From: Candidatus Bathyarchaeia archaeon
GTDB lineage: Archaea; Thermoproteota; Bathyarchaeia; Bathyarchaeales; Bathyarchaeaceae
Direction of reading: 5' to 3'
NCBI GenBank assembly: GCA_035283685.1
Contig: DATETJ010000002.1
Location: forward strand, 421,362 to 485,361
DNA: 64,000 nt
Both the position numbers and the translations under genes were made by a program. Under the pieces are notes generated by a model, which was given only the letters and a program-made list of their open reading frames with translations, made no database searches and was not told the DNA's origin. This document shows, piece after piece, positions 28,593-61,872 of this stretch. Within the stretch, counting starts at the first letter, position 1. Each line of letters begins with the position of its first letter.

Positions 28593-31391
28593 TTAGAGGT
28601 AGCGCTTCTTTTCTTTTCGCCAAAGCAACAGCATGCCGCCGATGAGCCCTATAGAAGCTATTGACAAAGCAGCCATCTTCGGAGTCTCACGTTCCCATGT
28701 GGATTTGACAACGAAGGTCCTAATGTTTGTTCCAGAAGCCAACATCGTCTCTGTTGCTTGACTGGCTCCAACAATCAGAGTGTAAGTTCCTGTCATTGAA
28801 CCTTTTCCCTCGATGACGCACTTGACGCTGTAAAGACCCACTGCAACTCTGTTAGGCGTCAGCTCTTGAGTTGTTCCATCTGGTTTCTGAAGTTGAACAT
28901 TAAGAGACGTGACATCGATTGCAGTTCCTTTGAACACTGTTTGTATGTGGAATTCAGCTGTCTCGCCTTTGAAGTAGATGGCGCCGACGTCCAAATTGAC
29001 ATCTATGGGTGAGGTTTCAATTACTGTAAATGCTGCTTCAACTGTATAGTAACGTGTTGGGTAAGTGTAGGACATCAGGAGCGCTTTGATGACGTGAAGG
29101 CCGGGTGAAGCAGGCGGCACATTGATCGTGGCTTGTAGGTTTCCGCGCTCATCAACTATTGCAAACGAGTAAAACTGATCGTCGAACAACAGCAGTTGTG
29201 TGATTCCATAGCTATAGTATGGAAAACCAGTGCCCATAACCCTAACTGTCGTAGCGGCGGGGCCTGAAGTTGGGTCTATGCTGAGATAGGGAATGACTTC
29301 GAAGGCTCTTTCGGCGACAGCTCTAGTTGTCACATCTTGAACTCGCGTATACTGCACACCCTCGATCGAGGGTGGAACGTTGAAAGAGAACCCAAAGTCC
29401 CCGTTTGGGTTTGCCGTAGCTGTACCTATTAAGGTGTAGTTGTAGAACCAGCCGCCGTAAGGGGTAAAGGCACGTGAGCCCCAGTAGATATTCACGTAGC
29501 CATTTGGGGTGGCACGGGAACCCGTAATGGAGACCAAAGTGCCCACGATTCCCTTTTCTGGCATGATTGAAACCTCTATCCTTGGCAAGACAACTAGTAG
29601 AGCTTGAACTGTAACTGTAAATCCATCGTTGTCGATGGCTGTTAAAGTCACTGTGTAAGTTCCAGCGGTAGCATAGATGTGGGACGCGCTGGGGCCAGAG
29701 CCAAATGCTCCGTCGCCGAAGTTCCATGAGTAACTGACGATCCAACCGTCTGGGTCATAAGCATTAGCAATGAAAACTACTGTCTCATTTTCCACTGGGT
29801 TCTGTGGCATCCATTCAGGAGATAGCGTTGGCTGAGCGTACACTCGTACCATTTTCCGTATACTGCTCGTCTTTTCCTCGTTGTCAACAACTGTCAGGGT
29901 GACCCAGTAGTAACCCATCGCGCCAAAGGCGTGGGCGACTTCAGGAGTCGACCTGACCGCTGTGGTTCCATCATTGAAGTCCCAGATGTATCTCTCTATC
30001 ATGCCGTCAAGATCGTAACTGAGTGAGGCATCAAATGCTATCGTTTCATTCAAGAGCGGTTTTGACGGGGCGTACGCGTAGTTTGCTATTGGCACACCAG
30101 ACGGTGCTTCTGAAATAACGTAGCCGTCAGTTGCTGTATGTTCAATTGGATTCGGAATAGAATCTCTCAGCTTGGTATCAAAGAGATCCAAAACACTGTT
30201 GCCAACATCGCTCACAAAGAATCGAACCGTGGCTAACGTTCCGCTTCCGCTCACCCCTTGAACGCCTGCGCCGAGCCTAGTGCATCCGACTACAACGTAG
30301 TCACTTCCAATCTGATCTTCGTAGGTCGCGCTTATGAAATATGTTGCTTGCTGCTCGATTCCTTTGAGGAAGTCGCCTTCCTCGACGCTGACAAAGTCAA
30401 GCAGACGGGCCTCCCAACCAAGTTTTATTTCCCACGCGAAGACGTTTGTGGCATTTGCTATTCGTATGTCGACCGTGAAGAACTCATGGGGAATCGTGGT
30501 TACTGAAGAGGGAGCAATATAGATTGATGTCAGGGGGCTAGGCGGCGGCTCAGTTGTGACAGTTATGAGAGCTGTTGCATTATCGGTGAATCCATCATTG
30601 TCGGTGACAGTCAAGGTCACAAGGTAAGTGTCTGCAATTGCATAAGCATGAGTCGTGATTGGATCAGCTTCAGCTGAATAAGTGGTATCGCCAAAATTCC
30701 AGATGTAAGTAGCGATTGTTCCATCTGCATCGTAGCTCAATGAGGCGTCGAAGACTACCGTGACACCCACACTTGGAGCGAGAGGTGAGTAAGTGAAAAC
30801 AGCTTGAGGTGCGCTGCCGATGAAGTATCCATCGGCTACATCGTGGGGTATCCCTGCGCTGGTTGAGTCTAGGAGTATGGTGTCGTGGAGGTCGAGTGGG
30901 CTTTCGCCACCTCCAACCACTTCAAAGATCACTGTTGCTAACCAGCCGTCTCCGTAGACACCCCCCACTTGGCCAAGGATAGTGGCGGCGGCTCGAACCA
31001 AGCCAGCGGCATTGTTAGTGTTCCAGGTGAAGTAGGTTGTGCCACCTATCATCAGGAAGTCGCCCTCAATGACGTCGGTGACACTCAACACTCCGTCGAT
31101 AAGGCCGCTGAACGACATTTGGAACTGCCACGATTTCAAGTCCATGACTGCCTCTATCATAATGTTAACTGCAAAGACATCGCCAGGCACCAGACCTTCC
31201 GTCAATTGTGGATCAACATAAACTCTTGTCAAAGCTTGAGCTGAAGCCGGAGGAACAAAAGAGCCAGGAATCATCGTGCTTGCGTGCATTGTTGCTGGGA
31301 AGATGGTTACAATCAGGATCACAAGCCACAGAAACTTGCGACAAATTATCTTGTTTAGCATTCTTTTGTACATTCCTTTTTCTCTCTCCAA
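28593..31391 (-). CDS. Membrane-anchored surface protein with two cohesin-like modules, three PKD domains and Ig-like repeats (scaffoldin-like)
   Basis: 932 aa with a signal/TM segment. Cohesin class 1 covers aa 57-192 (nt 30816-31223; VYVDPQ...KSWQFQMSF...GDGWLATVIF). Cohesin class 2 covers aa 289-427 (nt 30111-30527; NVFAWEIKLGW...GSGTLATVRF). The PKD motifs are FDASLSYDxDG...WNFGD/WDFND. A C-terminal TM helix plus KEKKRYL follows. Confidence 0.8.
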   Translation of the reverse strand: MEREKGMYKRMLNKIICRKFLWLVILIVTIFPATMHASTMIPGSFVPPASAQALTRVYVDPQLTEGLVPGDVFAVNIMIEAVMDLKSWQFQMSFSGLIDGVLSVTDVIEGDFLMIGGTTYFTWNTNNAAGLVRAAATILGQVGGVYGDGWLATVIFEVVGGGESPLDLHDTILLDSTSAGIPHDVADGYFIGSAPQAVFTYSPLAPSVGVTVVFDASLSYDADGTIATYIWNFGDTTYSAEADPITTHAYAIADTYLVTLTVTDNDGFTDNATALITVTTEPPPSPLTSIYIAPSSVTTIPHEFFTVDIRIANATNVFAWEIKLGWEARLLDFVSVEEGDFLKGIEQQATYFISATYEDQIGSDYVVVGCTRLGAGVQGVSGSGTLATVRFFVSDVGNSVLDLFDTKLRDSIPNPIEHTATDGYVISEAPSGVPIANYAYAPSKPLLNETIAFDASLSYDLDGMIERYIWDFNDGTTAVRSTPEVAHAFGAMGYYWVTLTVVDNEEKTSSIRKMVRVYAQPTLSPEWMPQNPVENETVVFIANAYDPDGWIVSYSWNFGDGAFGSGPSASHIYATAGTYTVTLTAIDNDGFTVTVQALLVVLPRIEVSIMPEKGIVGTLVSITGSRATPNGYVNIYWGSRAFTPYGGWFYNYTLIGTATANPNGDFGFSFNVPPSIEGVQYTRVQDVTTRAVAERAFEVIPYLSIDPTSGPAATTVRVMGTGFPYYSYGITQLLLFDDQFYSFAIVDERGNLQATINVPPASPGLHVIKALLMSYTYPTRYYTVEAAFTVIETSPIDVNLDVGAIYFKGETAEFHIQTVFKGTAIDVTSLNVQLQKPDGTTQELTPNRVAVGLYSVKCVIEGKGSMTGTYTLIVGASQATETMLASGTNIRTFVVKSTWERETPKMAALSIASIGLIGGMLLLWRKEKKRYL

Positions 31392-40098: not shown

Positions 40099-41127
40099 CT
40101 ACTTGCCGGTGCCATAGGTGTATTTGTGGCATGCCACGATTCTTTTTTCTTCAGTGGGAAGCAGCTTTGGTTCTTCTTTCTTGCAGCGGTCCCACGCGTA
40201 GGGGCATCTTGTGTGGAATCGGCATCCCGGGGGAGGATTAACAGCGCTTGGGACTTCGCCCTTAATCACAACCTCAGTTCGACGAGCTGTCGGATCTGGA
40301 ACTGGCACGGCTGCAATTAGGGCTTCTGTGTATGGGTGTTGGGGTTTTTGAATGACGTTTTCCGCAGGTCCTTGCTCCACAATCTGTCCTAAGTACATGA
40401 CTGCTATGCGGTTACACATGTATCTGGCCAAAGCGATGTCGTGTGTGATGTACAGAAAAGAGCAGTGGAACTTCTTCACAATGCCTAGCAGTAGTCGAGC
40501 AACTTCACTGCGTATTGATGCGTCAAGCATTGAAAGCGGTTCGTCAGCGACCATGAACTCTGGCTTCAGGACGAATGCTCTCGCAATTGCAATTCTTTGC
40601 CTCTGTCCGCCACTCAACTCGTGGGGAAATCGATAGATATATTCCTCGGGGGGAACTAGGTCCAGATCTTCGAGCACATTGACGACCCTCTCGTGGACTT
40701 CACTCTCGCTTTTTGCCACTCTCTGGATTCGCACTGGTTCAGAAACTATGTCAAAGATGCTCATTCGCGGATTTAGCGACTCGTAGGGATCTTGGAATAT
40801 TATCTGCATTTTGCGCCGCATCTTCCTCATTTCATCCGGCGTCATCGCAGTAACGTCTGTTCCCTTGAAGATAATCTTGCCATCGGTGGGTTCGATCAGC
40901 CTGAGCAACAGTCTGCCTGTAGTCGTCTTGCCGCAGCCACTCTCGCCTACCAAGCCAAAGACTTCCTCTTTTCCTAGGGAGAGGTTTACGTTCTCAACCG
41001 CATGAACATATGGAACAGATTTGGACATCAACGTCTTCATGAAACCCATCTTCAACTGAAAGTACTTCTTCAAGTTGTGTGCTTCTAGAATTGTGTCTTC
41101 ATTGTGTGTTTCGATTTTTTCTTTCAT
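40099..41127 (-). CDS. oppF: Oligopeptide/dipeptide ABC transporter ATP-binding protein (OppF-like)
   Basis: It has Walker [10 protein letters not shown], signature LSGGQRQR and Walker B MVADEP. The C-terminal oligopeptide domain is [12 protein letters not shown]. The start is taken at MKEKIETH (41127). Confidence 0.85.
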   Translation of the reverse strand: MKEKIETHNEDTILEAHNLKKYFQLKMGFMKTLMSKSVPYVHAVENVNLSLGKEEVFGLVGESGCGKTTTGRLLLRLIEPTDGKIIFKGTDVTAMTPDEMRKMRRKMQIIFQDPYESLNPRMSIFDIVSEPVRIQRVAKSESEVHERVVNVLEDLDLVPPEEYIYRFPHELSGGQRQRIAIARAFVLKPEFMVADEPLSMLDASIRSEVARLLLGIVKKFHCSFLYITHDIALARYMCNRIAVMYLGQIVEQGPAENVIQKPQHPYTEALIAAVPVPDPTARRTEVVIKGEVPSAVNPPPGCRFHTRCPYAWDRCKKEEPKLLPTEEKRIVACHKYTYGTGK

Positions 41128-41132
41128 GTTTT

Positions 41133-42065
41133 TCACTTTCCTACAAGGTGGCATGCTACGAGATGCTGTGAGCCGTCGACTTCGGTTACCTCTGGTTCTT
41201 TGCGTTTGCATATATCCATCGCGTAGGGGCATCTTGGGTGGAATCTGCATCCTGGTGGCGGGTTAAGCAAGTCTGGTGGAAAGCCAGGAATTGACTGCAG
41301 TTCTCTTTTAACGCCTAGAATGCTGGGAAAGGCACCAATCAGTTTCTGCGTGTACGGATGCAAGGGTTCTTTGTAGAGGGGCGCACTTTCACCGTACTCA
41401 GCGATTTTTCCTGCATACATAATTGCAACTTTGTTACAAGTGTCCGCGATCATCGACAAGTCATGTGAAATCAATATGAGTGAAAGGTCTAGCTTCTTTT
41501 GAAGCTCCTTCATGACTTTTAGCACCTGAGCCTCAATGATCACGTCAAGGGCTGTCGTTGGTTCGTCCGCGATAACAAGTGTCGGGTTACAGGCCAAAGC
41601 CATCGATATCATTGAGCGCTGCTTCATGCCTCCGCTCAGCTCGTGTGGATAGCGAGCGAATTTGGAGGCGCCTATTCCTACAAGGTCTAGTAAGCGCTCA
41701 GTTCTCTTTCTCGCTTCGTCTTTGCTTACATCTTCGTGGGCAAGTATTGGTTCAGCAATCTGACTCCCGATGCTCTTGTTGGGGTGAAGCGCGTTCATGG
41801 CTCCTTGGAAAACAACTGAGATTTTCTTCCACCGAATTTCTTTGTTGAATTTGTCTGGAGGCATTTTCAGGATTTCTTCGCCGCCAAATCGTATGTTGCC
41901 GCCGTAGATTTTTCCGTTCCATGGCAGAAGCTTCAAAATCGAGAGTGCAGCGCTGGTTTTGCCGCAGCCTGACTCTCCGGCTAATCCAATTGCGTCTCCT
42001 TTCTGGACTTCGAAGCTGACATCGTCTACTGCTTTAACTTCTCCTCTCATTGTGTGGAAATACAT
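41133..42065 (-). CDS. oppD: Oligopeptide/dipeptide ABC transporter ATP-binding protein (OppD-like)
   Basis: It has Walker [10 protein letters not shown], signature LSGGMKQR, Walker [11 protein letters not shown] and C-terminal [12 protein letters not shown]. The N-terminus may extend a few codons. Confidence 0.85.
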
Positions 42066-42097
42066 TCTCAGGTTGTTGACTTCTAAGAGTGCCAGTT

Positions 42098-43558
42098 CTA
42101 ACGTCTCCTTCTAAGTCGCGGGTTCACGATTTCGTCAATTGCGAATCCCATGAACACGAATGTCAAGCTCAACATAGTAATGGCAATTCCCGGCGGCACA
42201 AACCACCACCAGGCGCCGTTTTCGAATGCGCCGTGTCCGAATGCGTAGTTCAGCATTTTTCCCCATGTGGGGACTCGCGGATCGCCGAATCCAAGGAAGC
42301 TCAGCGCGGCTTCTGCGAGTACCGCTCCTGGAACGCTTAGCACTAGTGAAGCTAGGGCTACTGGAAAGATGTTGGGGACAAGATGTCGAGCCATAATATA
42401 GGGTTTGCTTGCTCCCGAAGCGAAAGCGGATTCTACAAAAGTTGTCTCTCGGAGGTAAAGAACTTGTGACCTAATTACTCTAGCCAAGCCGAGCCAGCCG
42501 AAGATTGCTATGAAGAGAACGATGTAGAAGATGTTTTTCCCAAACAGTCTAACTAGGGTTAGAAGTAATGGGAGTCCTGGAAGGCAGAGCAATACGTCCA
42601 CGATTCGCATGGTAACTTCGTCAACTGCTCCCCCCAAATATCCTGCCACTGTGCCAACAATGACGCCGATGGATGTCGAAATGGCTGCCGCCATTAGCCC
42701 AATAACCAGTGATATTCGCGATCCGTAGACGAGCTGTGAAAAAACGTCTGTGCCAAGATAGTCTGCACCTAATATGCCATGAATGAGCCCTGGGATGAAG
42801 AACTTGAATCTTGTGAGACTTACATCAGCCTTCATTGATTCAGAGTCTTCGGCAGGTCTCATGGCTACGCGGAAGGTAAGGCGGTAGAGACTTTTCGTTG
42901 GGTTTGAGAAGATTATGTGCGCGAGGTTTGTAGCTCCAACTTCTATGTACCCTATTTTCTTGAGTAACCAATAGTCATTTGAGTCGCCTTCCACGCCTAG
43001 ATTGATGTTCTGATCCGTATACGGTTCGAACCAGATTCGGGTGGAGGAGCCATTAAGTTCGTTCGTCAATATGAGTTCGGCTGACCACCACACATTTGAA
43101 AGATTCTGAACGCTCCAAGCGAATGAGGAAACGAATCTCATTGGAGGCACATCGTGCGGGTACTCGAAGGTTGTGGAGGCAGTGACTTCTATTGCTCTCG
43201 CATTTCTTGCGGGTATGCTAATCTGTGTCTCCACGTTTTTTCCGCCAGCTGTGTGAATTTCGGGTGGGCTCTCGCCTCCTGTGATGTTCCAGGAGGGGGT
43301 GATTTCCATGGTGTAGGGGTGATCTTGGTATTGTGGAAGGGCTTGCATGAAGCTTGGCATCGCATAGCTTTCAGCGACACGGGTTGATGATAGCGGATCG
43401 TATGGTGTCAGCCATGGAGAAAAGACTGCCATTATAATGTATCCGGCGAGAAGCAGCAGCCCTACGAAACCGATTCTGTTGTGGCTGAATTCATCCCAGA
43501 ATCCCCTTATTCGACGCGAATATATCTTTCGTGTATCTTCTGAAATCAAAGGTGACAC
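42098..43558 (-). CDS. oppC: ABC peptide transporter permease (OppC-like) with an extracytoplasmic insertion of about 200 aa
   Basis: The C-terminal half has the BPD-transporter permease core (EAA-like region ESAFASGASKPYIMARHLVPN). About 200 non-TM residues follow the first TM helix. Confidence 0.85.
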   Translation of the reverse strand: MSPLISEDTRKIYSRRIRGFWDEFSHNRIGFVGLLLLAGYIIMAVFSPWLTPYDPLSSTRVAESYAMPSFMQALPQYQDHPYTMEITPSWNITGGESPPEIHTAGGKNVETQISIPARNARAIEVTASTTFEYPHDVPPMRFVSSFAWSVQNLSNVWWSAELILTNELNGSSTRIWFEPYTDQNINLGVEGDSNDYWLLKKIGYIEVGATNLAHIIFSNPTKSLYRLTFRVAMRPAEDSESMKADVSLTRFKFFIPGLIHGILGADYLGTDVFSQLVYGSRISLVIGLMAAAISTSIGVIVGTVAGYLGGAVDEVTMRIVDVLLCLPGLPLLLTLVRLFGKNIFYIVLFIAIFGWLGLARVIRSQVLYLRETTFVESAFASGASKPYIMARHLVPNIFPVALASLVLSVPGAVLAEAALSFLGFGDPRVPTWGKMLNYAFGHGAFENGAWWWFVPPGIAITMLSLTFVFMGFAIDEIVNPRLRRRR

Positions 43559-43572
43559 TGATCATCTCTCCT

Positions 43573-44565
43573 TTATCTTCTGAATCCAACGCGTATTCTC
43601 GGGTCCAATATTCCGTACAGTATGTCTGCGGCAAGGTTGCAGATGATGGTAAGCACAGCGTATATGAAGAGCACTGCTTGGACAACTGGATAATCATCTG
43701 CTTGGAGAGCACTTATATACCAAGATCCGATTCCTGGCCACGTGAATATGTACTCGGTTATGATTGCTCCGGTCACTAAGCCTGGTATGGCGAGAGTGAT
43801 CATTGTGGCGATGGGTGGCAGCACGCTTCTGAAAGCATGTCGGTAGAGAACTGTTCGTTCACTTAGTCCTTTGGCTCGTGCTGTGAGCACATAATCTTGT
43901 GTGAGAGCGTCTATCATCAGGTTTCTGACGTACAGTGCGTATCCTCCGAAGCCTGCTAATATGAGTGTTAATGCGGGCATTGTCATGTGCCATGCAATGT
44001 CTGCCATGAGAGCTAAAGATTCAGTGGGAGCTGGAACGCTGACCATTCCACGAGGTGGGAACACTTGGATGCCGAACCACATCACGAAGAAGTAGGAAAA
44101 GAAGAGTAAAAATATCATTTGGATGAAGAATGTCGGCACTCCGTCTGCAAAGAGTCCGGCTGCCATTGAGACCATGTCCGTTTTGGATCCTCTTCTGGAT
44201 CCTGCGAGTATTCCCACGGGTGTGCCTAGCAGAATCGAGCCTATTAGCACTGTTCCCAGAAGTAGAAGCGTGTTTGGCAGTCGTAGGGCGAGGCCTTCGT
44301 TTATGGGTTCTCTTGTTTTGAATGAGAAGCCGAAGTTCCAGGTGAATACGCTCTGAATGTATAGACCGTACCGGGTCGTTAGAGTCTCATTCAGTCCGTA
44401 TTGGAGAAACAGTTGGTCTTTTTGTTCTTTTGTGAAGTTTGGATCAATGATGGTTCTGGTTGGGTCTCCTGCGTAGACGACTTGGAATATTACGAAAGTG
44501 AGTGTTGCGATGATGTAAAGTGTAACTAGTCCAATTGCAACTCTTTTTAGCAGATAACCTCTCAA
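43573..44565 (-). CDS. oppB: ABC peptide transporter permease (OppB-like)
   Basis: 330 aa. The N-terminus is MRGYLLKRV and the EAA motif region is LTARAKGLSERTVLYRHAFRS. Confidence 0.85.
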   Translation of the reverse strand: MRGYLLKRVAIGLVTLYIIATLTFVIFQVVYAGDPTRTIIDPNFTKEQKDQLFLQYGLNETLTTRYGLYIQSVFTWNFGFSFKTREPINEGLALRLPNTLLLLGTVLIGSILLGTPVGILAGSRRGSKTDMVSMAAGLFADGVPTFFIQMIFLLFFSYFFVMWFGIQVFPPRGMVSVPAPTESLALMADIAWHMTMPALTLILAGFGGYALYVRNLMIDALTQDYVLTARAKGLSERTVLYRHAFRSVLPPIATMITLAIPGLVTGAIITEYIFTWPGIGSWYISALQADDYPVVQAVLFIYAVLTIICNLAADILYGILDPRIRVGFRR

Positions 44566-44618
44566 GTTGGGTATTCTCCTTTATTATTGAGTTTTCCAAA
44601 ATTTCTGATGTCTGAAAC

Positions 44619-44666
44619 CATTTAAAGTTATCTTCGATGGTTAGAGAATGGCATTTAAAATTATCT
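44619..44666. promoter_or_regulatory. Direct repeat CATTTAAARTTATCT x2 in the divergent opp / cohesin-operon control region
   Basis: The copies are at 44619-44633 (catttaaagttatct) and 44652-44666 (catttaaaattatct), with 14/15 identity. Their starts are 33 bp apart. Each contains a TTTAAA TATA-like core. Confidence 0.4.
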
Positions 44667-44706
44667 GGGAGTGTAGAGGTGGCTTCTATGTGTCTGTTAT
44701 ATAGAA

Positions 44707-44719
44707 CTTTATATAATAA
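44707..44719 (+). promoter_or_regulatory. Candidate archaeal TATA box for the cohesin/dockerin operon
   Basis: The sequence ctttatataataa lies about 70 nt upstream of the ATG at 44787. A Shine-Dalgarno-like GGAGAAGGG sits at 44769-44777. Confidence 0.35.
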
Positions 44720-44786
44720 CTCTTATATTTCTGCTTGAAGTAGTTAATGGTGCTGAAAAAAAGAGATAGGAGAAGGGAAAATACTT

Positions 44787-46832
44787 ATGGACAATAGTAT
44801 GTTGAAGCGAGTATGCTTGACAGTGATTTGCATATCGATGCTCGCAGCAATGTTCTCCATTAGCCCCGCGTTTGCGCAACAGAGAGGTCCAAAACTAGAT
44901 CTCTATCGACTTAAGGTCACGAGGTCTCCGGCTGCTCAGTTGATTGAGATGACTACGGGTGCCAGTGAAGCGTGGGATGGTCTCATCCGACCCACTGACA
45001 TTGAAGAGATGGACCGCCAGGGTAAAGTTATCAGTTCTCGTGGTGGCTTCCACTACTGCCGTATCATCTTGAACTACAGGGTGCATCCACTTGACGATGC
45101 GAACTTCAGGCACGCCTTGTTCCATTTGGTGCCTAAAGACCGCATCATCGGCAACCTATTCAAGTACATCGTTGTGAAGGTTGACACTCCAGTGCCTCCA
45201 GCTCAAGCGTTGTGGTACAACCCCGCGGTTGACCCCCACGCCTACAGCCCTACAGAAGCAGAAGCAATTCTGGCTGCTGCAGGCTACCAGAAGATTGGAG
45301 GCGAGTGGAAGGACACGGATGGCTCAAACCTGCCTACTCTGCGCTTCTTCGTGCCGCTTGAAGTTGTGGCGCCTACGTCCTACACTATCGGTAGGATGGT
45401 GGTTGAGGAAGCTCAGGGCATCGGCTTGAACAACATTGACCTTCAACCAACTGACTTCGCCACGTACGTTGACAAGACTTTCAACCTGTGGGACTATGAG
45501 ATGTCGTGGGTTTGCCACGGTTTGGGCAGGTTCCCAACCCACTTGTTCTACCAGTTTAGTTCTGAAGAGAACTATCTGGGAAGCGGCAACCCTCACGGCA
45601 TAGTCTACCCAGCCCTGGATGCTAAGTTGTCCACTTTGTTGAGGAGCTTGAACCACGCGGACAAAGTTATTGCCGTGCGTGAGGCTCAGGTTCTCTTGAT
45701 GGGTGGATCAAGCAGCAGTCCAATGCCTCAAAATGTGCCGGCTACAGACCAAGCTTTGCCAACAGTTCCAATCTACTCTAGAAACTACTATGACATTCAA
45801 CAGCCCTACTTGCGCGGCGCCGTCAACATGTTCGGCTATGGCATTGCCAACGGCTGGACAATGTTGAACATTGAGAAAACCGCTGATCCTAACGGTCACG
45901 GAGCCAAAACCCTTGTGTGGATTGAGGACGAGTTCCCGGAGAGGTTGAACCCAACCTGGGCGTCAACGGTCTACGCGTGGGATTTCATGGAGAATTCATT
46001 TGACGGCTTGATGGCAACCAACCCATTCACTCACCGAGATGAGCCTTGGCTTGCCTCGAATGTAAGCGGATGGTCGTACGCGACTGAGCCGGGCGGCATG
46101 GCAGTAACCTTTAACATTAGGCTGAATGACCTGCACGGTTCACCAGTCCAATGGGCTGACGGTGATCCAGTTCAAGTGAGCGACATCAAGTTCTCGTGGG
46201 ACTTCCTCAAGAACAACACTATTCCAGCCTACTGGGGTGCTTTCAGGTTCTTCAAGAACGCCACTATCGTGGACGCGGACACTATTGTGGCTCACATGAC
46301 CACGACGAGCCAGTGGCTGGTCTACGATTTGGCTGGCACTGCTTACCTACTGCCGCCTCAAGTGTGGACTGTGGATCCACGTGATGGCTTGCCATGGGTT
46401 AACACCGCTGAGATAACAAGCTTTGACCCGTCTGCGCTGGCGTATCCTGATCCGGATGGTGGTGGACCGCTTCGTGCGCTTCCAAACCACTTGTTCGGGA
46501 CAGGCCCGTTCATACTGCAGCACTCAACCGCGTTCATGGCGACTAACGCTTACGGTGACCAGACTGCTAACCGCAACTACTGGTTAACTACGGCTGACAT
46601 CGATGCCATTATTGAGGACATGTTCTGGAGATCAGGTGACACCGTTGACAACGACGAAGTTGACATCACCGACCTAGACTTGATCGCCACATGGTTTGGC
46701 CAAAACGTGCCCCCAGCGCCTGTAAACGCTGACATCACCCGAGCTGCAGGTGGACCACCAGACACACTAGTAGACATCGACGACCTCGCAACAACTGGCA
46801 AATACTTCGGTGAAACCGAATCAGTGCCGTAA
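44787..46832 (+). CDS. ABC transporter substrate-binding protein (family 5, OppA/DppA-like) with C-terminal dockerin-like module
   Basis: 681 aa with a signal peptide (MLAAMFSISPAFA). The body is SBP_bac_5-like. The last 66 aa (nt 46632-46829) form two dockerin-type segments: GDTVDNDEVDITDLDLIATWFG and PPDTLVDIDDLATTGKYFG. Confidence 0.8.
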   Translation: MDNSMLKRVCLTVICISMLAAMFSISPAFAQQRGPKLDLYRLKVTRSPAAQLIEMTTGASEAWDGLIRPTDIEEMDRQGKVISSRGGFHYCRIILNYRVHPLDDANFRHALFHLVPKDRIIGNLFKYIVVKVDTPVPPAQALWYNPAVDPHAYSPTEAEAILAAAGYQKIGGEWKDTDGSNLPTLRFFVPLEVVAPTSYTIGRMVVEEAQGIGLNNIDLQPTDFATYVDKTFNLWDYEMSWVCHGLGRFPTHLFYQFSSEENYLGSGNPHGIVYPALDAKLSTLLRSLNHADKVIAVREAQVLLMGGSSSSPMPQNVPATDQALPTVPIYSRNYYDIQQPYLRGAVNMFGYGIANGWTMLNIEKTADPNGHGAKTLVWIEDEFPERLNPTWASTVYAWDFMENSFDGLMATNPFTHRDEPWLASNVSGWSYATEPGGMAVTFNIRLNDLHGSPVQWADGDPVQVSDIKFSWDFLKNNTIPAYWGAFRFFKNATIVDADTIVAHMTTTSQWLVYDLAGTAYLLPPQVWTVDPRDGLPWVNTAEITSFDPSALAYPDPDGGGPLRALPNHLFGTGPFILQHSTAFMATNAYGDQTANRNYWLTTADIDAIIEDMFWRSGDTVDNDEVDITDLDLIATWFGQNVPPAPVNADITRAAGGPPDTLVDIDDLATTGKYFGETESVP

Positions 46833-46849
46833 ACTTGGAGGTGAATAGA

Positions 46850-48256
46850 GTGAGAGGAAAAAGCATTTTGTGGTTGGCTCTTGCTGCGTTGCTGTTGGCT
46901 ATGCCTGCAGTTAACGTGCGGGCGCAGACCACAACTGTATATATAGATCCTCCATTGACCACTGGCCTAATGCCTGGCGACATCTTTGCGGTGAACCTGA
47001 TGGTGATGGGTGCTGTTGATCTGAAGTCATGGCAGGTTGAGTTGTCCTTCTCGAAGTACATGGCCACGCTAGCTGTCACCGACGTCATTGAGGGCGACTT
47101 CATGATGATTGGTGGCGATACCTTCATGGCTAAGTACGTGGATGCGTTCCACGGCTTGCTGAAGGTTGGTGTCACTATCCTCGGACAAGTCGGCGGCGTC
47201 TACGGTGATGGATGGCTAGCTACAATAATCTTCACTGTGCTAGAAGCAGGCGAAACTCCATTAGACCTACATGACACTATACTGTTGGACTCCATGGGCG
47301 TTGAGATGGCGCACGATGCAGTTGACGCCTATTATCTTGGACTCACTGCGGATATGTACAACGTGCCTGGCAGCAACCAGACAAGAGAAGGTGGCTGGAA
47401 GGCAGGAGACACCCGCAAGTTCAAGATGATAGTCCAAAACACAGGCTATGCACCACTCTATGTGCGTGCAAAGCACTCAACTGTGCGCGGCTCAGACAAC
47501 AAGGTGTTCAACCTGTACAGCGGCCAACACATGTACACAACAGTGCCTAGACCAACAACGTACTACAACGTGAGTGGCTACACACCCGCAGGCTTCTCTG
47601 ATTGGACAACAGTCGGTACAAGTCCATTCCTAGCCCCATGGGGACCAGCGGCAGGTGCTGGCGCGGACGGTAGCTACGTTCAAGCGAGCGACTACAGCCA
47701 GTTGACAGGCATAATTGACTTCCAGGACATCAGCTTGAACCCAGGAGACGTCATCCTGAGTGTAACGCTTGAAGCGTTCACAAAGGCAGACAGCACTGCA
47801 ATTGATATGGACGTCTACACGTATCCAGACTTTGCTTGGCTAGGTTCCTTGTGGGGTTCTGGAAGCTACGGCTGGAAGACTCAGAGATGGATAACAGGTC
47901 CAATTTCCGACTCTATGCCGTCGCTCAAGACCGCCGCAGGATTCAATAGCCTGAAGCTAGTGATTCACTACTGGACAGAAACTGGCGCTACGATGGGCAA
48001 CGCTTTCATGGAAGCGATCAGATTGAGAGTGGCTTTCACTGGAATTGATCCGTTGACTCCAGGCTTCTACACTATCATGCCAGGCGAACAGAAAGTCCTG
48101 CCAGCAGCGTTATGGGATCTATGGGCATTCGACGCAAACACCTACACAACAACTTCAACCCTTGAGTATCGATACAACTTCCCAGACCCACGATTCCCAA
48201 TGGTTTGGCAAACTGGTCAGCATACCAAAACGTTCACTTGGTGGGTCCGACCGTAA
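46850..48256 (+). CDS. Secreted cohesin-domain protein (class-1 cohesin + uncharacterised C-terminal module)
   Basis: GGAGGTG precedes the GTG at 46850 (the track ORF starts at 46835), and a signal peptide follows. The cohesin is at nt 46937-47341 (VYIDPP...KSWQVELSF...GDGWLATIIF). There is no TM anchor and no dockerin. Confidence 0.75.
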   Translation: MRGKSILWLALAALLLAMPAVNVRAQTTTVYIDPPLTTGLMPGDIFAVNLMVMGAVDLKSWQVELSFSKYMATLAVTDVIEGDFMMIGGDTFMAKYVDAFHGLLKVGVTILGQVGGVYGDGWLATIIFTVLEAGETPLDLHDTILLDSMGVEMAHDAVDAYYLGLTADMYNVPGSNQTREGGWKAGDTRKFKMIVQNTGYAPLYVRAKHSTVRGSDNKVFNLYSGQHMYTTVPRPTTYYNVSGYTPAGFSDWTTVGTSPFLAPWGPAAGAGADGSYVQASDYSQLTGIIDFQDISLNPGDVILSVTLEAFTKADSTAIDMDVYTYPDFAWLGSLWGSGSYGWKTQRWITGPISDSMPSLKTAAGFNSLKLVIHYWTETGATMGNAFMEAIRLRVAFTGIDPLTPGFYTIMPGEQKVLPAALWDLWAFDANTYTTTSTLEYRYNFPDPRFPMVWQTGQHTKTFTWWVRP

Positions 48257-48354
48257 ACGGATTCATCACGTGACGTCCCAAACTCCCTTTTTTCTTTTCT
48301 TGTAAATTAACACAATGTCACAGGAGACCCCACCCTACGAGAAGACAGAAACTC

Positions 48355-50265
48355 GTGCTTCTGACGATGCTCGTTTCTTCGGTTTTGTTACTCGCAAATA
48401 TACATTCTGTGTCGCCCATTGTTTGGTCAAGCGAGAAACCGCTCCCAACTAACACGTCGTACTATGATGGATCTGCTTCGGTTACCCAGACATCGGATGG
48501 AAAAATTTGGGTAGTCTGGGACAAGGAGGTGCAGTCGCGCTGGTCTATTTTCTATACGACGTCGTCTGATTACGGCGCGACTTGGGCGCTTGAGCAAAAC
48601 CTCACCGCGGTTCCAAGTCAAGACTTTAACAAAGATCCGTCAATTGTTCAGCTGTCGAACGGAACAATAATAGTTGTGTGGGCAGCGCAGAAGAATCCGC
48701 CGCTTCTTCCCAATGATTTTGAAATGAGTGCATCGCCTAACGCGCTCACAATTCCTAGGGGAAGTTCAGGTTTTTCCAATATCACAGTCCATTCGCTGAA
48801 CGGCTTCAGTGACTTGGTGAGTTTGTCAACGAGGATTGGACCACCCACTCCACATATTACTACGGGTTTTAGCCCTCCTCAAGTGACGCCTCCGCCGAAC
48901 GGGAACGCTTATTCAGGTCTTACAATAAATGTTGGCGTGCAGACCCCTGTGGGCACGTACACTGTAACAGTGAGAGGCTACAACCAGGCGCTCGACGTAA
49001 CTCGAACCACGATTGTCACTGTGACTGTTCCTTCCACCTTAAGTTCACCTTCTTCGATGGTTAGCGACTTCTCGCCTGCGGCTGAGCCTACACAGTCTCC
49101 TTATGAACTTGTCTACAGAACCTCGTCAGATAATGGAACCACCTGGTCAGCTGAAAAGAAGCTTCCGCTTGACGATGCTTCTGGGGATAATTTGGCGCCT
49201 TCCATAATGCAGGCTGCTAATGGCTCTATTTGGCTTGTCTGGGTTTCTGGTCGGACGGGTAATTCCGAATTATATTATAAGACTTCGCCGGATGGGATTT
49301 CTTGGTCTAGTGATTTTCGGCTCACGTATAATGCGAGTGTGGATGGCAGCCCATCCATTGCGCAAATGCAAAATGGCAACATATGGGTTGTTTGGTCTAC
49401 GGACAGGTTTGGGTTAAACGAAGAGCTGATTTACAACGTTTACAATGGAACATCTTGGCTGGGTGAACAGCGGCTCACTAGCACCGTAGATTACATTGAC
49501 GTGTATCCCGCGATTCTTCAGGCATGGAATGGAACGATACGCGTATTCTGGACTATAATTGGTGTTCCAGGCGATGGCACAGGCGACATTTACTATGTGG
49601 AGTCAAATAACAATGGAACTTCGTGGTCAAGTCCGATTCCATTTACAACCGACACTCGGGAGGACCAGTGGGTTGCTGTGGCTGAGTCTGTGGACACGCG
49701 TATGTGGGTTGTGTGGACTTCGAATCGAACTGGTGGCTTTGACCTTTATTACAGAACTTCGCTTGTGCACAACTTGGCTGTCACTGTAGTTGATCCTTCG
49801 CCGCTCAGAGTCTACCAGAAAGAAAATGTGACGATAGATGTGACTGTGCGGAATTGGGGTGACTTTGGTGAATCCTTCACTTTGTCCTGTTACGCTAATA
49901 CTACCTTGGTATATTCTCGTCCAGTTACTTTAGCGTCTGGGGCTTGGACAACAGTGACTTTTGGATGGAATACGTCTGGTTTTGAGCGGGGCAACTACTA
50001 TGTGACCGCAGTGGCAAGCGTGGTCCTAGGTGAGATTTATGCTGGAGATAATTCTCTGACGCATTCAACTATTCGTGTGAAGCTTTTAGGTGACGTAGAT
50101 GACAGTGGGTTGGTCAACACGCGTGACATGTTTAATCTGGGAAAGGCTTTCGGATCTGTGCCTGGAAACCCTAATTGGAATGAAGAGGCAGACATGAACG
50201 GAGACAACGCAGTCAACACTGTTGATTTGTCGGAGTTAGTCGGCAACTTCGGCGCAACTGGCTAA
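48355..50265 (+). CDS. BNR/Asp-box repeat beta-propeller protein + Ig-like insert + CARDB + C-terminal dockerin
   Basis: The Asp-box motifs are SSDYGATW, SSDNGTTW, SPDGISW and SNNNGTSW. The CARDB region is HNLAVTVVDPSP...VTVRNWGD. The dockerin is at nt 50083-50262 (GDVDDSGLVNTRDMFNLGKAFG / ADMNGDNAVNTVDLSELVGNFG). Confidence 0.8.
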   Translation: MLLTMLVSSVLLLANIHSVSPIVWSSEKPLPTNTSYYDGSASVTQTSDGKIWVVWDKEVQSRWSIFYTTSSDYGATWALEQNLTAVPSQDFNKDPSIVQLSNGTIIVVWAAQKNPPLLPNDFEMSASPNALTIPRGSSGFSNITVHSLNGFSDLVSLSTRIGPPTPHITTGFSPPQVTPPPNGNAYSGLTINVGVQTPVGTYTVTVRGYNQALDVTRTTIVTVTVPSTLSSPSSMVSDFSPAAEPTQSPYELVYRTSSDNGTTWSAEKKLPLDDASGDNLAPSIMQAANGSIWLVWVSGRTGNSELYYKTSPDGISWSSDFRLTYNASVDGSPSIAQMQNGNIWVVWSTDRFGLNEELIYNVYNGTSWLGEQRLTSTVDYIDVYPAILQAWNGTIRVFWTIIGVPGDGTGDIYYVESNNNGTSWSSPIPFTTDTREDQWVAVAESVDTRMWVVWTSNRTGGFDLYYRTSLVHNLAVTVVDPSPLRVYQKENVTIDVTVRNWGDFGESFTLSCYANTTLVYSRPVTLASGAWTTVTFGWNTSGFERGNYYVTAVASVVLGEIYAGDNSLTHSTIRVKLLGDVDDSGLVNTRDMFNLGKAFGSVPGNPNWNEEADMNGDNAVNTVDLSELVGNFGATG

Positions 50266-50353
50266 CTGAGACCTGTCTCCTTCAATTATGGATAAGTTTA
50301 AATGTTTTATCTTCTCTGTTTTCCTACGAATCCTATTCACGCCTAAAGAGGAA

Positions 50354-51634
50354 ATGAGGATGCCGAAGCCTAAACATGTGTTGCTTTTGTTGAGTTTGTT
50401 TGTTTTGAGTCTTTCAGCTTTGAGTTTGGTCCCTTCGTCTGTGGAGCAGGTGAAGCCGCTTGTTTATGTTGATCCGACTCCTATTGATTTTGAGCCTGGC
50501 GAAAGTTTCAATATAAATATCACAATCAAGTCTGCTGTGAACGTGTTTGCTTGGGAGTTCAAGTTGTTGTGGAATGCGTCAGTTCTTAATTACACTGGAG
50601 CTGTTGAAGGCGACTTTCTTAAGGGTTTTCAAAACGCGTCCACTTATTGGGTTAACCCGGTGCTGACTCAAAACGTCAGTGACAAATATCGTGTTCTTCT
50701 TGGGGTTACTCGTTTAGGCGCTGATATTCCTGGGGTTAGCGGAAGTGGTAAGCTTGCTATGATAAGTTTTGATGTTTTGACCAAGGGCGAAACAACCTTA
50801 GATTTGGTGGAAACCAAATTGAGAGACAGCGTTCCAAATCCAATTGATCACGATTCGCGGGATGGTTTGTTCTCGAATACAGCTGGTTTTCCGCGACCTG
50901 ATTTTTCGTTCACTCCTGCTAAAGCGAATATTAATGAGACCATTACGTTTGATGCCAGCAATTCGACTGATGTTGATCAGGGCGTAGATCATTACATTGT
51001 TCTTTATTCTTGGAATTTCAGCGATGGCACTCCCGTCGTGGAGGAGGCTGGCGCCATTACTTATCATGCTTATTCTGAGGGTGGCACTTATGACGTGACT
51101 TTGACTGTTATGGACAATGATCGCTGGAACAGGTCGATTACTAAGGCGGTGAAGGTTCGGTTCACGTACGATGTCAAGGTCGCCGAGGTTAAAGCTGCGG
51201 TTGAGTCTGCTACAATTGGCGACAAAGTGGCTATTACGGTGAAGGTTAGCAATGAGGGTTCAGGCGATTTGACGAGTGTGAGTGTCACGGCTTATTATAG
51301 TGTAGGGTTGCAGTTGGGTACTGCTTTGGGTCCAGCGCAGACTACGTCGTTAGTTGTTGATCAGACTAAGACTTTGTCTTTCGAGTGGGACACTTCAGGT
51401 GTGGCTAAGGGCAGCTACCGAATTAACGCGGCGGTTGCTCCTGTTGCAGGTGAGCCTGAACAAGCTCAGGAGGATAATACGAGCCGGGGTGGCACGGTTA
51501 CGTTGGTTGAGGTTCAGGAGACTCCTTGGCTCTTGTACGGTGGCATTATCGCCGGAGTTGCCGTGGTGGCTGTTGTCGGTTTCCTGTTTATGAGGCGCCG
51601 AGGCGGCGGTGGCAAGCAAACTCCAATTCGCTAG
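50354..51634 (+). CDS. Membrane-anchored cohesin (class 2) - PKD - CARDB surface protein
   Basis: The start is taken at MRMPKPKHVLLLL (the track ORF starts at 50288). The cohesin is at nt 50459-50875 (NVFAWEFKLLW...GSGKLAMISF). The PKD motif is FDASNST...YSWNFSDGT and the CARDB motif is VTVKVSNEGSGD. A C-terminal TM helix plus RRRGGGG follows. Confidence 0.8.
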   Translation: MRMPKPKHVLLLLSLFVLSLSALSLVPSSVEQVKPLVYVDPTPIDFEPGESFNINITIKSAVNVFAWEFKLLWNASVLNYTGAVEGDFLKGFQNASTYWVNPVLTQNVSDKYRVLLGVTRLGADIPGVSGSGKLAMISFDVLTKGETTLDLVETKLRDSVPNPIDHDSRDGLFSNTAGFPRPDFSFTPAKANINETITFDASNSTDVDQGVDHYIVLYSWNFSDGTPVVEEAGAITYHAYSEGGTYDVTLTVMDNDRWNRSITKAVKVRFTYDVKVAEVKAAVESATIGDKVAITVKVSNEGSGDLTSVSVTAYYSVGLQLGTALGPAQTTSLVVDQTKTLSFEWDTSGVAKGSYRINAAVAPVAGEPEQAQEDNTSRGGTVTLVEVQETPWLLYGGIIAGVAVVAVVGFLFMRRRGGGGKQTPIR

Positions 51635-51848
51635 ACCCGGAAACTTCTAGCATCTCTTTTTTCTTGTGGTCTTTTTGGAAATCTGTTTCTTAGTAGAGGC
51701 AAGTTCTGGCGTTTGATGCGCCTTTTTCCATTATAGTGTGGTTACAATAATCGTCTAGTATTGTGTTTAGTAGATGTGTTCAGCAACTTTTAAATTGTGT
51801 CTTGCATTTAGTTTCACATGTTCAACGTTGGAGAGAGAAGGCGAGGAC

Positions 51849-54761: not shown

Positions 54762-54894
54762 GGCGGGCATTGAACTCGTAGACGCTTTCTCCCATCTTTC
54801 TGTATGCTCTGGCTTATAGACGACAATTACACAAACGATTTATATTTGACTGCAGTTTTATTACGTGTAGTTGGCAGTAGAGGGAGAGAAAGAG

Positions 54895-56076: not shown

Positions 56077-56092
56077 TTTGGAGGGAGCGTGA

Positions 56093-61716: not shown

Positions 61717-61872
61717 TGGTCAGCCTTCAGCCTACCATAATTCACTGTGGATTCCGCGGGTATTATTCTTAGCGACGCAAGAGATCGTCATCGCTAGGCT
61801 GGCTTCCGATGGCTGTTTATAGATTTGTTTAAATGGTTTCTCTCGAAAGCAATATTTTTGGAGGTTGCAACA

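What the first reader, a model, noticed from the sequence alone, without database searches (positions are those of the whole stretch)
28593..31391. Distal two-cohesin, TM-anchored scaffoldin-like gene that carries one module of each cohesin class
This gene lies 13 kb from the operon and on the opposite strand. Its 932-aa protein combines a class-1 cohesin (nt 30816-31223, KSWQFQMSF type) with a class-2 cohesin (nt 30111-30527, NVFAWEIKLGW type). The two are separated by PKD domains, and the protein ends in a TM anchor. It is the only protein in the window with both classes. It could therefore co-localise two different dockerin specificities on the cell surface, acting as a primary anchoring scaffoldin.
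Basis: partly seen in the sequence, partly recalled or inferred. Interest (0 to 1): 0.6.

Follow-up and report, generated by a model that had tools for sequence, protein, structure and literature searches.

The report
Membrane-anchored two-cohesin archaeal surface protein
This gene from a Bathyarchaeia archaeon encodes a membrane-anchored cell-surface protein with two genuine but divergent cohesin modules, which most likely tethers dockerin-tagged secreted proteins to the cell; it is a real but fairly ordinary new member of the known non-cellulosomal cohesin–dockerin systems.

Summary
ORF 28593–31391 (−) encodes a 932-aa protein; the probable true start is ATG 31373, giving 926 aa. Its layout is: signal peptide, cohesin A, PKD, cohesin B, PKD, PKD, three Ig-like stalk domains, C-terminal TM helix, basic tail.

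- **Fold:** Both modules fold confidently as cohesins (pLDDT 94). The best structural match for each is the Archaeoglobus fulgidus cohesin 2xdh.
- **Two clades:** A and B are 38% identical. Identity is 25–40% between clades and has a median of 45–49% within them.
- **Conserved order:** The order A→B(→B) recurs in five related metagenomic proteins. These include a positional orthologue (P0003) and an operon-internal paralogue type (P0023).
- **Counts:** The window holds seven cohesin modules, not eight. It has two canonical dockerins plus two atypical dockerin-like tails.
- **Naming:** "Class 1/2" are lineage-specific subclades, not the canonical type I/II cohesins.

Interpretation is partly supported. 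An anchoring, scaffoldin-like role fits the topology and the link to a dockerin-containing operon beside an Opp ABC transporter. Distinct specificities are plausible, because class-specific changes lie on strands β3, β5, β6 and β8, but this is untested. "Primary" is not supported: two other membrane-anchored cohesin proteins carry the same classes. I rate it a new member of a known kind, of moderate interest.

The parts
28593..31391 (-). Whole ORF (932 aa from TTG; probable true start ATG at 31373, giving 926 aa = P0001)
31236..31373 (-). N-terminal Sec-type signal peptide (basic n-region, hydrophobic core FLWLVILIVTIFPA, ...ASAQA)
   Evidence: Hydropathy; read by eye, no dedicated predictor was run
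30795..31235 (-). Cohesin module A (aa ~53-199; strand beta-3 = KSWQFQMSF)
   Evidence: AF2 pLDDT 94.3. Foldseek top hit is 2xdh, E 1.4e-15, TM 0.76/0.82. 78% identical to the cohesin of gene 51774. Class HMM scores A 245 vs B 97.
30540..30794 (-). PKD domain 1 (the only PKD between the two cohesins)
30090..30533 (-). Cohesin module B (aa ~287-434; strand beta-3 = FAWEIKLGW)
   Evidence: Pfam Cohesin 27.4 bits. AF2 pLDDT 94.2. Foldseek top hit is 2xdh, E 9.3e-11, TM 0.75/0.83. Class HMM scores B 231 vs A 103.
29838..30083 (-). PKD domain 2
29592..29831 (-). PKD domain 3
28692..29585 (-). Membrane-proximal stalk of about three beta-rich Ig/TIG-like domains (aa 603-900); 56-59% identical to the C-terminal parts of P0002-P0005 and P0039
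   Evidence: Weak TIG hit of 17 bits, below the cut-off. No PDB sequence hit. Conservation. Domain boundaries are approximate.
28620..28676 (-). C-terminal transmembrane helix MAALSIASIGLIGGMLLLW
   Evidence: Kyte-Doolittle 2.0 over 19 aa. No CTERM sorting-signal family hit in NCBIfam.
28596..28619 (-). Short basic cytoplasmic tail RKEKKRYL (conserved as KREKKRYL in P0002-P0005)
44787..46832 (+). Candidate partner: OppA-like solute-binding protein. It has a signal peptide, no TM anchor, and an atypical dockerin-like C-terminal tail.
   Evidence: SBP_bac_5. Tail DTVDNDEVDITDLDLIATWFG...PPDTLVDIDDLATTGKYFG, partly conserved in the L085 orthologue. Not recognised by Pfam.
46835..48256 (+). Secreted protein with an A-type cohesin (58% identical to the target's A) plus a 295-aa domain of unknown family; no anchor and no dockerin
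48355..50265 (+). Candidate cargo: BNR beta-propeller + CARDB + canonical dockerin
50288..51634 (+). Second membrane-anchored cohesin protein (B-type cohesin, PKD, CARDB, TM)
51774..54761 (+). Third membrane-anchored cohesin protein (A-type cohesin, PKD, CARDB, ..., Big_3_5 x2, TM)
54871..56076 (+). Adaptor-like protein: divergent cohesin plus an atypical dockerin-like module whose two repeats are split by a ~165-aa insert
   Evidence: Pfam does not detect a dockerin
56093..57685 (+). Adaptor-like protein: unknown N-terminal domain, highly divergent cohesin, CARDB, canonical dockerin
40099..44565 (-). Opp-type ABC transporter (two ATPases, OppC, OppB), divergently transcribed from the SBP/cohesin operon
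   Evidence: the same arrangement occurs in L085

Best explanation
The gene encodes a type-I-topology surface protein of a Bathyarchaeia archaeon. The protein is secreted through Sec and held in the cytoplasmic membrane by one C-terminal TM helix with a basic cytoplasmic tail. Outside the cell, a stalk of about three Ig-like domains and two PKD domains lifts two cohesin modules away from the membrane. B is proximal, and A is distal beyond one more PKD.

Each cohesin most likely acts as a receptor for a dockerin-type module on other secreted proteins. The protein would then be a small anchoring scaffoldin that pins up to two partners to the cell surface. Likely partners are encoded in the operon 13 kb away, which sits beside an Opp ABC transporter:
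- an anchorless OppA-like binding protein with a dockerin-like tail;
- a BNR propeller protein with a canonical dockerin;
- two cohesin-plus-dockerin adaptor proteins.

A and B most likely recognise different partners.

**Shown:** gene, domain order, cohesin folds, two clades, conserved A-then-B order, synteny, presence of dockerins.

**Inferred:** dockerin binding, which partner binds which module, and non-redundancy.
For: **Fold**
- AF2 models have pLDDT 94 for both modules.
- About 50 solved cohesins are the top Foldseek hits for each module. The best is the A. fulgidus cohesin 2xdh.
- A profile of the modules hits PDB cohesins at E down to 2.4e-10.
- Pfam Cohesin scores above its cut-off for the whole protein and for module B.

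**Topology**
- Signal peptide and C-terminal TM helix plus basic tail.
- No sorting-signal family was detected.

**Partners in the genome**
- Canonical dockerins on genes 48355 and 56093.
- Atypical dockerin-like tails on the SBP and on gene 54871, conserved in the L085 orthologues.

**System linkage**
- The target's A module is 78% identical to the cohesin of operon gene 51774. Its B module is 44% identical to that of gene 50288.
- In L085, a colinear operon carries A+B+B on the internal anchored protein.

**Non-redundancy**
- Two clades in the NJ tree.
- A-B identity is 25-40%, against within-class medians of 45-49%. Tandem B-B modules are 64-68% identical.
- The A-then-B(-B) order is kept in P0002, P0003, P0004, P0023 and P0056. 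P0003 is a positional orthologue.
- Class-specific differences fall on beta-3, the beta-5/6 hairpin (3 residues longer in B), beta-6 (I to R) and beta-8 (I/L to K/R). In solved type-I complexes this is the dockerin-binding sheet 8-3-6-5 (established knowledge, Carvalho et al. 2003, recalled from memory).

**Precedent**
- Per PMC9012536, archaeal cohesin-dockerin pairs bind specifically, and ANME archaea carry dockerins on OppA/NikA binding proteins.
Against: - No binding data exist, and no complex could be modelled (structure jobs exhausted).
Class-specific residues could only be assigned to strands, not to the exposed face.
- By simple counts, conserved-different columns are not clearly enriched on the 8-3-6-5 strands.
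- Module A alone fails Pfam Cohesin.
- Two of the four dockerin-like modules are not recognised by Pfam.
- The same cohesin classes occur on two other anchored proteins, so this protein may be functionally redundant within the system.
- The gene is not in the operon, so co-expression is unknown.
- Strict A/B classes were seen in only six proteins.
Confidence: 0.55

Rival explanations
1. It is a redundant double receptor. A and B bind the same dockerin(s), and the protein simply doubles the valency or avidity of surface tethering. The two 'classes' would reflect old duplication and drift, not different specificity.
For: - A and B are clearly homologous over their full length.
- Both have the same best structural match.
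- Many core and several strand-8 positions are identical between the classes.
- All dockerin-like modules in the window are similarly acidic, pI ~4.1.
Against: - The two clades are kept apart across genomes. Between-class identity never exceeds 40%, whereas tandem B modules stay at 64-68%.
- The order A then B is conserved at two paralogous loci.
- Class-specific charge changes lie on beta-6 and beta-8, and a hairpin indel lies at beta-5/6.
- The window holds at least two clearly different dockerin flavours.
Confidence: 0.2
2. It is an adhesin or cell-envelope structural protein. The cohesin-fold modules, together with the PKD and Ig-like domains, would bind something other than dockerins, such as polysaccharide, another cell or an S-layer component. 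Alternatively they act only as spacers.
For: - PKD, TIG-like and CARDB domains are typical of adhesion and surface proteins. PMC5244752 discusses cohesin/dockerin domains in ANME archaea under cell adhesion.
- PMC9012536 states that the role of cohesin/dockerin outside cellulosomes is not clear from presence alone.
- The gene lies outside the dockerin operon.
Against: - The same cohesin classes sit in an operon that also encodes dockerin proteins, and that operon is conserved between genomes.
- According to PMC9012536, archaeal cohesins have been shown experimentally to bind dockerins.
- The modules are the most distal, exposed parts of the protein, as expected for receptors.
Confidence: 0.15
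3. It is a receptor only for the adaptor proteins (genes 54871 and 56093). In this reading it is the base of a hierarchical, multi-layer assembly and not a direct tether for cargo such as the SBP or the BNR protein.
For: - Two operon proteins combine a cohesin with a dockerin or dockerin-like module, like the adaptor scaffoldins of bacterial cellulosomes.
- Their own cohesins are of further, different subtypes.
Against: There is no evidence about which dockerin binds which cohesin. This is a sub-case of the main explanation, not an alternative to it.
Confidence: 0.1

Closest known systems
Non-cellulosomal cohesin of Archaeoglobus fulgidus (PDB 2xdh) and its cohesin-dockerin protein pair
   Same: It is the best structural match for both modules (TM 0.75-0.83). 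Both are archaeal, about 140-150 aa, and unrelated to cellulose degradation. Per PMC9012536, archaeal pairs bind specifically.
   Different: Sequence identity is only about 19%. Here two divergent cohesins sit on one membrane-anchored polypeptide with PKD and Ig-like spacers, inside a larger multi-protein system.
Scaffoldin-like multi-cohesin proteins and dockerin-bearing OppA/NikA binding proteins of ANME archaea (Chadwick et al. 2022, PMC9012536; Timmers et al. 2017, PMC5244752)
   Same: Both are archaeal, non-cellulolytic and carry several cohesins per protein. Dockerins sit on ABC-transporter binding proteins, and CARDB/PKD-type surface domains are present. One small cohesin relative comes from a Methanogasteraceae MAG.
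   Different: The ANME proteins are described as a dockerin plus up to five cohesins. The target has no dockerin, has a TM anchor, and comes from Bathyarchaeia. The held literature describes no Bathyarchaeia cohesin-dockerin system.
Anchoring scaffoldins of bacterial cellulosomes (for example C. thermocellum OlpA/OlpC/SdbA; R. flavefaciens ScaB, which carries cohesins of two specificities); recalled from memory
   Same: These are cell-bound proteins whose cohesins dock dockerin-bearing partners. Solved cohesins from such proteins are strong structural matches (3ul4, 4dh2, 5n5p). Mixed specificities on one scaffoldin are known.
   Different: Bacterial anchors use SLH modules or sortase. Here the anchor is a C-terminal TM helix, with no SLH or sorting signal found. 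No CBM is present, and no glycoside hydrolase cargo was found in the window. The system is linked to an Opp transporter.

Membership tests
Cohesin domain (Pfam PF00963; cohesin fold) | Nine-stranded beta-sandwich (jelly-roll) of about 140-150 residues | tested here: met
   Both modules have pLDDT 94 and nine main strands by DSSP. The top ~50 Foldseek hits are all cohesins, E down to 1.4e-15 for A and 9.3e-11 for B.
Cohesin domain (Pfam PF00963; cohesin fold) | Sequence-profile match above the curated threshold | tested here: met
   The whole protein scores 34.4 bits against a cut-off of 24.1, with 2 stretches. Module B alone scores 27.4 bits. Module A alone gives no Pfam hit at E<=1. A is tied to the family through homology to B (E ~1e-16) and through a mixed A/B-module profile that hits PDB cohesins at 2.4e-10.
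Cohesin domain (Pfam PF00963; cohesin fold) | Ca2+-dependent, specific binding of a dockerin module | not testable with these tools
   This needs binding assays or complex prediction.
Cohesin-dockerin system | Dockerin-bearing proteins encoded in the same genome | tested here: met
   Pfam Dockerin_1 on gene 48355 (28.2 bits, above the 22.9 cut-off) and gene 56093 (21.9 bits, just below it). Ca-loop motifs are present. There are two further atypical dockerin-like tails that Pfam does not recognise.
Cellulosomal anchoring scaffoldin | Two or more cohesins on one polypeptide | tested here: met
   Two modules.
Cellulosomal anchoring scaffoldin | Cell-wall attachment through SLH modules or a sortase signal | tested here: not met
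   No SLH or sorting-signal family appears in Pfam or NCBIfam. Attachment is by a C-terminal TM helix instead. That is a functional analogue, not the defining module.
Cellulosomal anchoring scaffoldin | Cargo consists of dockerin-bearing carbohydrate-active enzymes; a CBM is present in the system | tested here: not met
   The dockerin proteins in the window are a BNR propeller, an OppA-like SBP and adaptors. No glycoside hydrolase or CBM family was found in the proteins scanned. Only this 64-kb window was examined.
   Module B is about 148 aa and all-beta by DSSP, with no helix. The best matches for both A and B are 2xdh and type-I cohesins. Type-II chains align with lower TM-scores normalised to the target. 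A/B are therefore lineage-specific subclades, not type I/II.
Archaeosortase/CTERM-sorted surface proteins (PGF-CTERM and similar) | Conserved sorting motif immediately before the C-terminal TM helix | tested here: not met
   There is no NCBIfam CTERM-domain hit at E<=1. The six C-terminally anchored proteins in the window share no pre-TM motif.

The most novel reading that the evidence does not exclude
The protein is one anchor of a Bathyarchaeal 'uptake-some'. This would be a non-cellulosomal cohesin-dockerin assembly with at least two orthogonal specificities (A and B). It would hold an otherwise anchorless OppA-type binding protein and a BNR propeller (possibly a hydrolase) at defined heights above the Opp ABC transporter. 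In this reading, cohesin-dockerin pairing replaces lipid or TM anchoring of the binding protein and couples extracellular substrate capture to import.
Probability: 0.3. Interest if true: 0.6.

Novelty: new member of a known kind. Interest (0 to 1): 0.4.

Why it matters
Bathyarchaeia are abundant, uncultured sediment archaea, and how they capture substrates is largely inferred. A membrane-anchored scaffoldin with two conserved cohesin classes, tied to a dockerin-containing operon beside an oligopeptide-type ABC transporter, leads to a concrete and testable idea. The idea is that these cells assemble nutrient-capture proteins on their surface through cohesin-dockerin pairs, and that binding proteins lacking their own anchor may be retained this way. 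It also offers new, possibly orthogonal cohesin-dockerin pairs for protein-assembly engineering. For the cohesin field it extends a known theme (A. fulgidus, ANME) and does not change it.

Tried and rejected
1. **Single-sequence PDB searches.** Module A gave no hit. Module B gave only E 0.46. They were uninformative until a profile was used.
2. **The search for related loci on GTDB genomes with the whole protein.** All 80 loci were PKD-only matches in bacteria.
3. **The search for homologous proteins with module A alone.** It returned nothing, not even the self-hit. With profile A1 it returned only nine small cohesin proteins. The planned independent test of the A-then-B rule and the taxonomic survey could not be done.
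4. **AFDB fold search.** The library was unavailable.
5. **Recent gene conversion between the target's A module and gene 51774.** Rejected: DNA identity is a uniform 78% over 410 nt, with no near-identical tract.
6. **Archaeosortase-type sorting signal in place of a TM anchor.** Rejected: no family hit and no shared pre-TM motif.
7. **Reading 'class 1/2' as type I/II cohesins.** Rejected.
8. **Shared fold among the unknown domains of genes 46835, 54871 and 56093.** No similarity was detected by phmmer or Pfam.
9. **Stalk region against PDB sequences.** Only noise.
10. **Enrichment of class-specific positions on the dockerin-binding sheet.** The simple strand counts were inconclusive without model coordinates.
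Full report
**What is there**

The window carries an uninterrupted ORF at 28593..31391 on the minus strand (932 aa from a TTG). An identical protein of 926 aa (P0001) is on record from four contigs, one of them 802 kb. A neighbouring protein from that contig is labelled Candidatus Bathyarchaeia archaeon. The archaeal origin fits the neighbours:
- a Mer-like F420 oxidoreductase and SHMT;
- an aldehyde:ferredoxin oxidoreductase.

The ATG at 31373 is preceded by GGAGAGAGAAAAAGGA and matches the start of P0001, so it is the likelier start codon.

**Domain map**

Pfam on the whole protein finds Cohesin (34.4 bits against a cut-off of 24.1, two stretches), three PKD domains and a sub-threshold TIG hit. 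Internal comparisons place the parts as follows:

| Part | Residues |
|---|---|
| Signal peptide | to ~aa 52 |
| Cohesin A | aa ~53-199 |
| PKD1 | 200-284 |
| Cohesin B | 287-434 |
| PKD2 | 437-518 |
| PKD3 | 521-600 |
| About three beta-rich Ig-like units | 603-900 |
| Hydrophobic helix | 906-924 |
| Tail RKEKKRYL | 925-932 |

Only one PKD separates the cohesins; the other two follow B.

**Are both modules cohesins?**

- **Module B.** Alone it passes the Pfam threshold (27.4 bits).
- **Module A.** Alone it gives no Pfam hit and no PDB hit by single-sequence search.
- **Homology between them.** A is homologous to B over its full length (E ~1e-16 in the window's ORF set).
- **Profile search.** A profile of these modules hits solved cohesins at E down to 2.4e-10, including the A. 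fulgidus cohesin 2xdh.
- **Structure.** AlphaFold2 models of both modules are very confident (pLDDT 94.3 and 94.2, pTM 0.87) and all-beta with nine main strands.
- **Structural neighbours.** In Foldseek against the PDB, the top ~50 matches for each module are cohesins. The best in both cases is 2xdh (A: E 1.4e-15, TM 0.76/0.82; B: E 9.3e-11, TM 0.75/0.83).

**Are there two classes?**

A six-frame HMM scan finds seven cohesin modules in the window, not eight.

| Gene | Module type | Relation to the target |
|---|---|---|
| Target | A and B | A vs B 38% identical |
| 51774 | A | 78% identical to target A |
| 46835 | A | 58% identical to target A |
| 50288 | B | 44% identical to target B |
| 54871 | divergent, leans to B | class HMM 79 vs 54 bits |
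| 56093 | very divergent | unclassifiable, 25 vs 26 bits |

- **Two clades.** Adding modules from database relatives gives two clades in a neighbour-joining tree.
- **Identity ranges.** A-A is 38-89% (median 49), B-B is 34-84% (median 45), and A-B is 25-40% (median 33).
- **Within one protein.** Tandem B modules are 64-68% identical, whereas A against B in the same protein is 32-38%.
- **What the classes are.** They are real but lineage-specific. Both modules are ~145-aa, type-I-like/archaeal cohesins with the same structural neighbours, so they are not the canonical type I and type II cohesins.
- **Uniqueness.** The target is the only protein in the window with two modules and with both classes.

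**Conservation of the arrangement**

- **Recurrence.** Five relatives carry A followed by one or two B modules: P0002 (A-B-B), P0003 (A-B-B), P0004 (A-B), P0023 (A-B-B) and P0056 (A-B).
- **Shared stalk and anchor.** P0002-P0005 and P0039 share the target's stalk and anchor, down to ...WKREKKRYL.
- **Positional orthologue.** P0003 lies in the same neighbourhood as the target: NosD-like, SHMT, Mer-like and a 95-aa gene on one side, and MJ0043_C-like, VTT and AFOR on the other. It is therefore a positional orthologue with a longer spacer region.
- **Operon-internal paralogue.** P0023 lies inside an operon colinear with the window's 40099-57685 region. The gene order is Opp ABC transporter, SBP, cohesin protein, dockerin protein, cohesin-PKD-CARDB protein, large anchored protein, then two further proteins. 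It occupies the place of gene 51774.

The A-then-B order is therefore maintained at two paralogous loci. This is the best indirect argument that the two classes are not interchangeable.

**The surrounding system**

All operon proteins have signal peptides.

- **Anchored cohesin proteins.** Three proteins end in a TM helix plus a basic tail: the target, gene 50288 and gene 51774.
- **A general anchor type.** Two NosD-like proteins and a C25 peptidase end the same way, so this is the organism's general surface anchor and not a scaffoldin-specific feature.
- **Canonical dockerins.** They occur on a BNR-propeller/CARDB protein (gene 48355) and on gene 56093.
- **Atypical dockerin-like modules.** There are two further modules with the consensus VDIxDL..ATxYG. 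One is at the C-terminus of the OppA-like binding protein (gene 44787), which has no membrane anchor. The other is in gene 54871, where the two repeats are separated by a ~165-aa insert.
- **Support for the atypical modules.** They are largely conserved in the L085 orthologues, but Pfam does not recognise them.

The Opp permease and ATPase genes are transcribed divergently from the SBP gene.

**Mechanism**

The topology places the cohesins outside the cell at the tip of a long stalk, with A the more distal. The best-supported reading is a small anchoring scaffoldin that docks dockerin-tagged proteins made by the Opp-linked operon.

Class-specific differences between A and B lie at these positions:
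- strand beta-3 (KSWQF... against FAWE...);
- a 3-residue insertion after beta-3 in A;
- the beta-4/5 loop;
- a beta-5/6 hairpin that is 3 residues longer and acidic in B;
- beta-6 (I to R);
- beta-8 (I/L to K/R).

From established structural work on type-I complexes (recalled, not tested here), strands 8-3-6-5 form the dockerin-binding sheet. That makes different partner preferences plausible.

Several limits apply:
- I could not obtain model coordinates.
- Simple strand counts show no clear enrichment.
- No complex could be predicted.

Specificity therefore remains an inference.

"Primary" anchor is not supported, because genes 51774 and 50288 provide the same classes on their own anchors.

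**Comparison with what is known**

Cohesin-dockerin modules outside cellulosomes, including in archaea, are established. PMC9012536 cites the A. fulgidus pair and binding assays. It also reports ANME proteins with up to five cohesins and dockerins on OppA/NikA binding proteins. PMC5244752 reports the abundance of these domains in ANME-1 and ANME-2a.

A profile of these modules finds 21,345 cluster representatives at E<=1e-3. Many have 4-10 cohesin stretches, and at least one is a Clostridia scaffoldin. Multi-cohesin proteins of this general kind are therefore common.

I found no description of a Bathyarchaeia cohesin-dockerin system in the held literature. That library omits most subscription journals.

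The target fails two defining features of cellulosomal scaffoldins: SLH or sortase anchoring, and CAZyme cargo with a CBM. It plausibly works like an anchoring scaffoldin all the same.

**Verdict**

- **Observation:** confirmed, with minor corrections.
- **Interpretation:** partly supported.
- **Novelty:** a new member of a known kind.
- **Interest:** moderate (0.4). It stems mainly from the conserved two-class arrangement and from the link between a cohesin-dockerin system and an Opp transporter in an uncultured archaeal lineage.

Noticed in passing
window 54871-56076 (+); orthologue L085:14574-15761: This 401-aa protein has a divergent cohesin followed by what looks like a dockerin split in two. 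Repeat 1 (...FGEVDIYDLAVVGVNYG, aa ~192-212) and repeat 2 (DVDNDLNVDIDDLVRVATNYG, C-terminus) are separated by a ~165-aa domain of unknown family. The repeats and the insert are conserved (54% identity) in the orthologue. Pfam sees no dockerin.
   Followed up: partly
window 44787-46832 (+); orthologue L085:2995-5022: The OppA-like SBP_bac_5 protein has a signal peptide and no membrane anchor. Its C-terminus carries an atypical dockerin-like tail (DTVDNDEVDITDLDLIATWFG ... PPDTLVDIDDLATTGKYFG). The second repeat is conserved in the orthologue. This suggests the binding protein is tethered through a cohesin, as proposed for ANME OppA/NikA proteins. Pfam does not detect the tail.
   Followed up: partly
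window 40099-44565 (-): A complete Opp-type ABC transporter (two ATPases with oligo_HPY, OppC, OppB) is transcribed divergently from the SBP/cohesin-dockerin operon. The same arrangement occurs in L085.
   Followed up: yes
window 46835-48256 (+): This secreted protein has an A-type cohesin plus a 295-aa C-terminal domain with no Pfam match. It has neither a TM anchor nor a dockerin, so how it is retained and what it does are unexplained. An orthologue (41% identity) sits at the same operon position in L085.
   Followed up: partly
window 56165-56737 (+) (N-terminal ~190 aa of gene 56093): An N-terminal domain with no Pfam match precedes a very divergent cohesin, CARDB and a canonical dockerin. 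By eye, a similar N-terminal region precedes the cohesins in database protein P0025.
   Followed up: no
window 34559-36886 (-), 59722-61716 (-), 61825-63372 (+): Two NosD/beta-helix surface proteins and a peptidase C25 (gingipain-family) protein all carry signal peptides and the same type of C-terminal TM helix plus basic tail. The window is rich in surface-displayed proteins, possibly degradative ones.
   Followed up: partly
window 31373-31391 (-): The ORF's TTG start is probably not used. An ATG six codons downstream is preceded by a purine-rich GGAGAGAGAAAAAGGA and matches the database protein P0001 (926 aa).
   Followed up: yes
window 30795-31235 (-) versus 51945-52354 (+): The target's A module and the cohesin of gene 51774 are 78% identical at both the protein and the DNA level. 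This is closer than the target's A is to the A modules of its positional orthologues (54-65%). There is no near-identical tract, so no recent gene conversion. An older exchange between the two loci is possible.
   Followed up: partly
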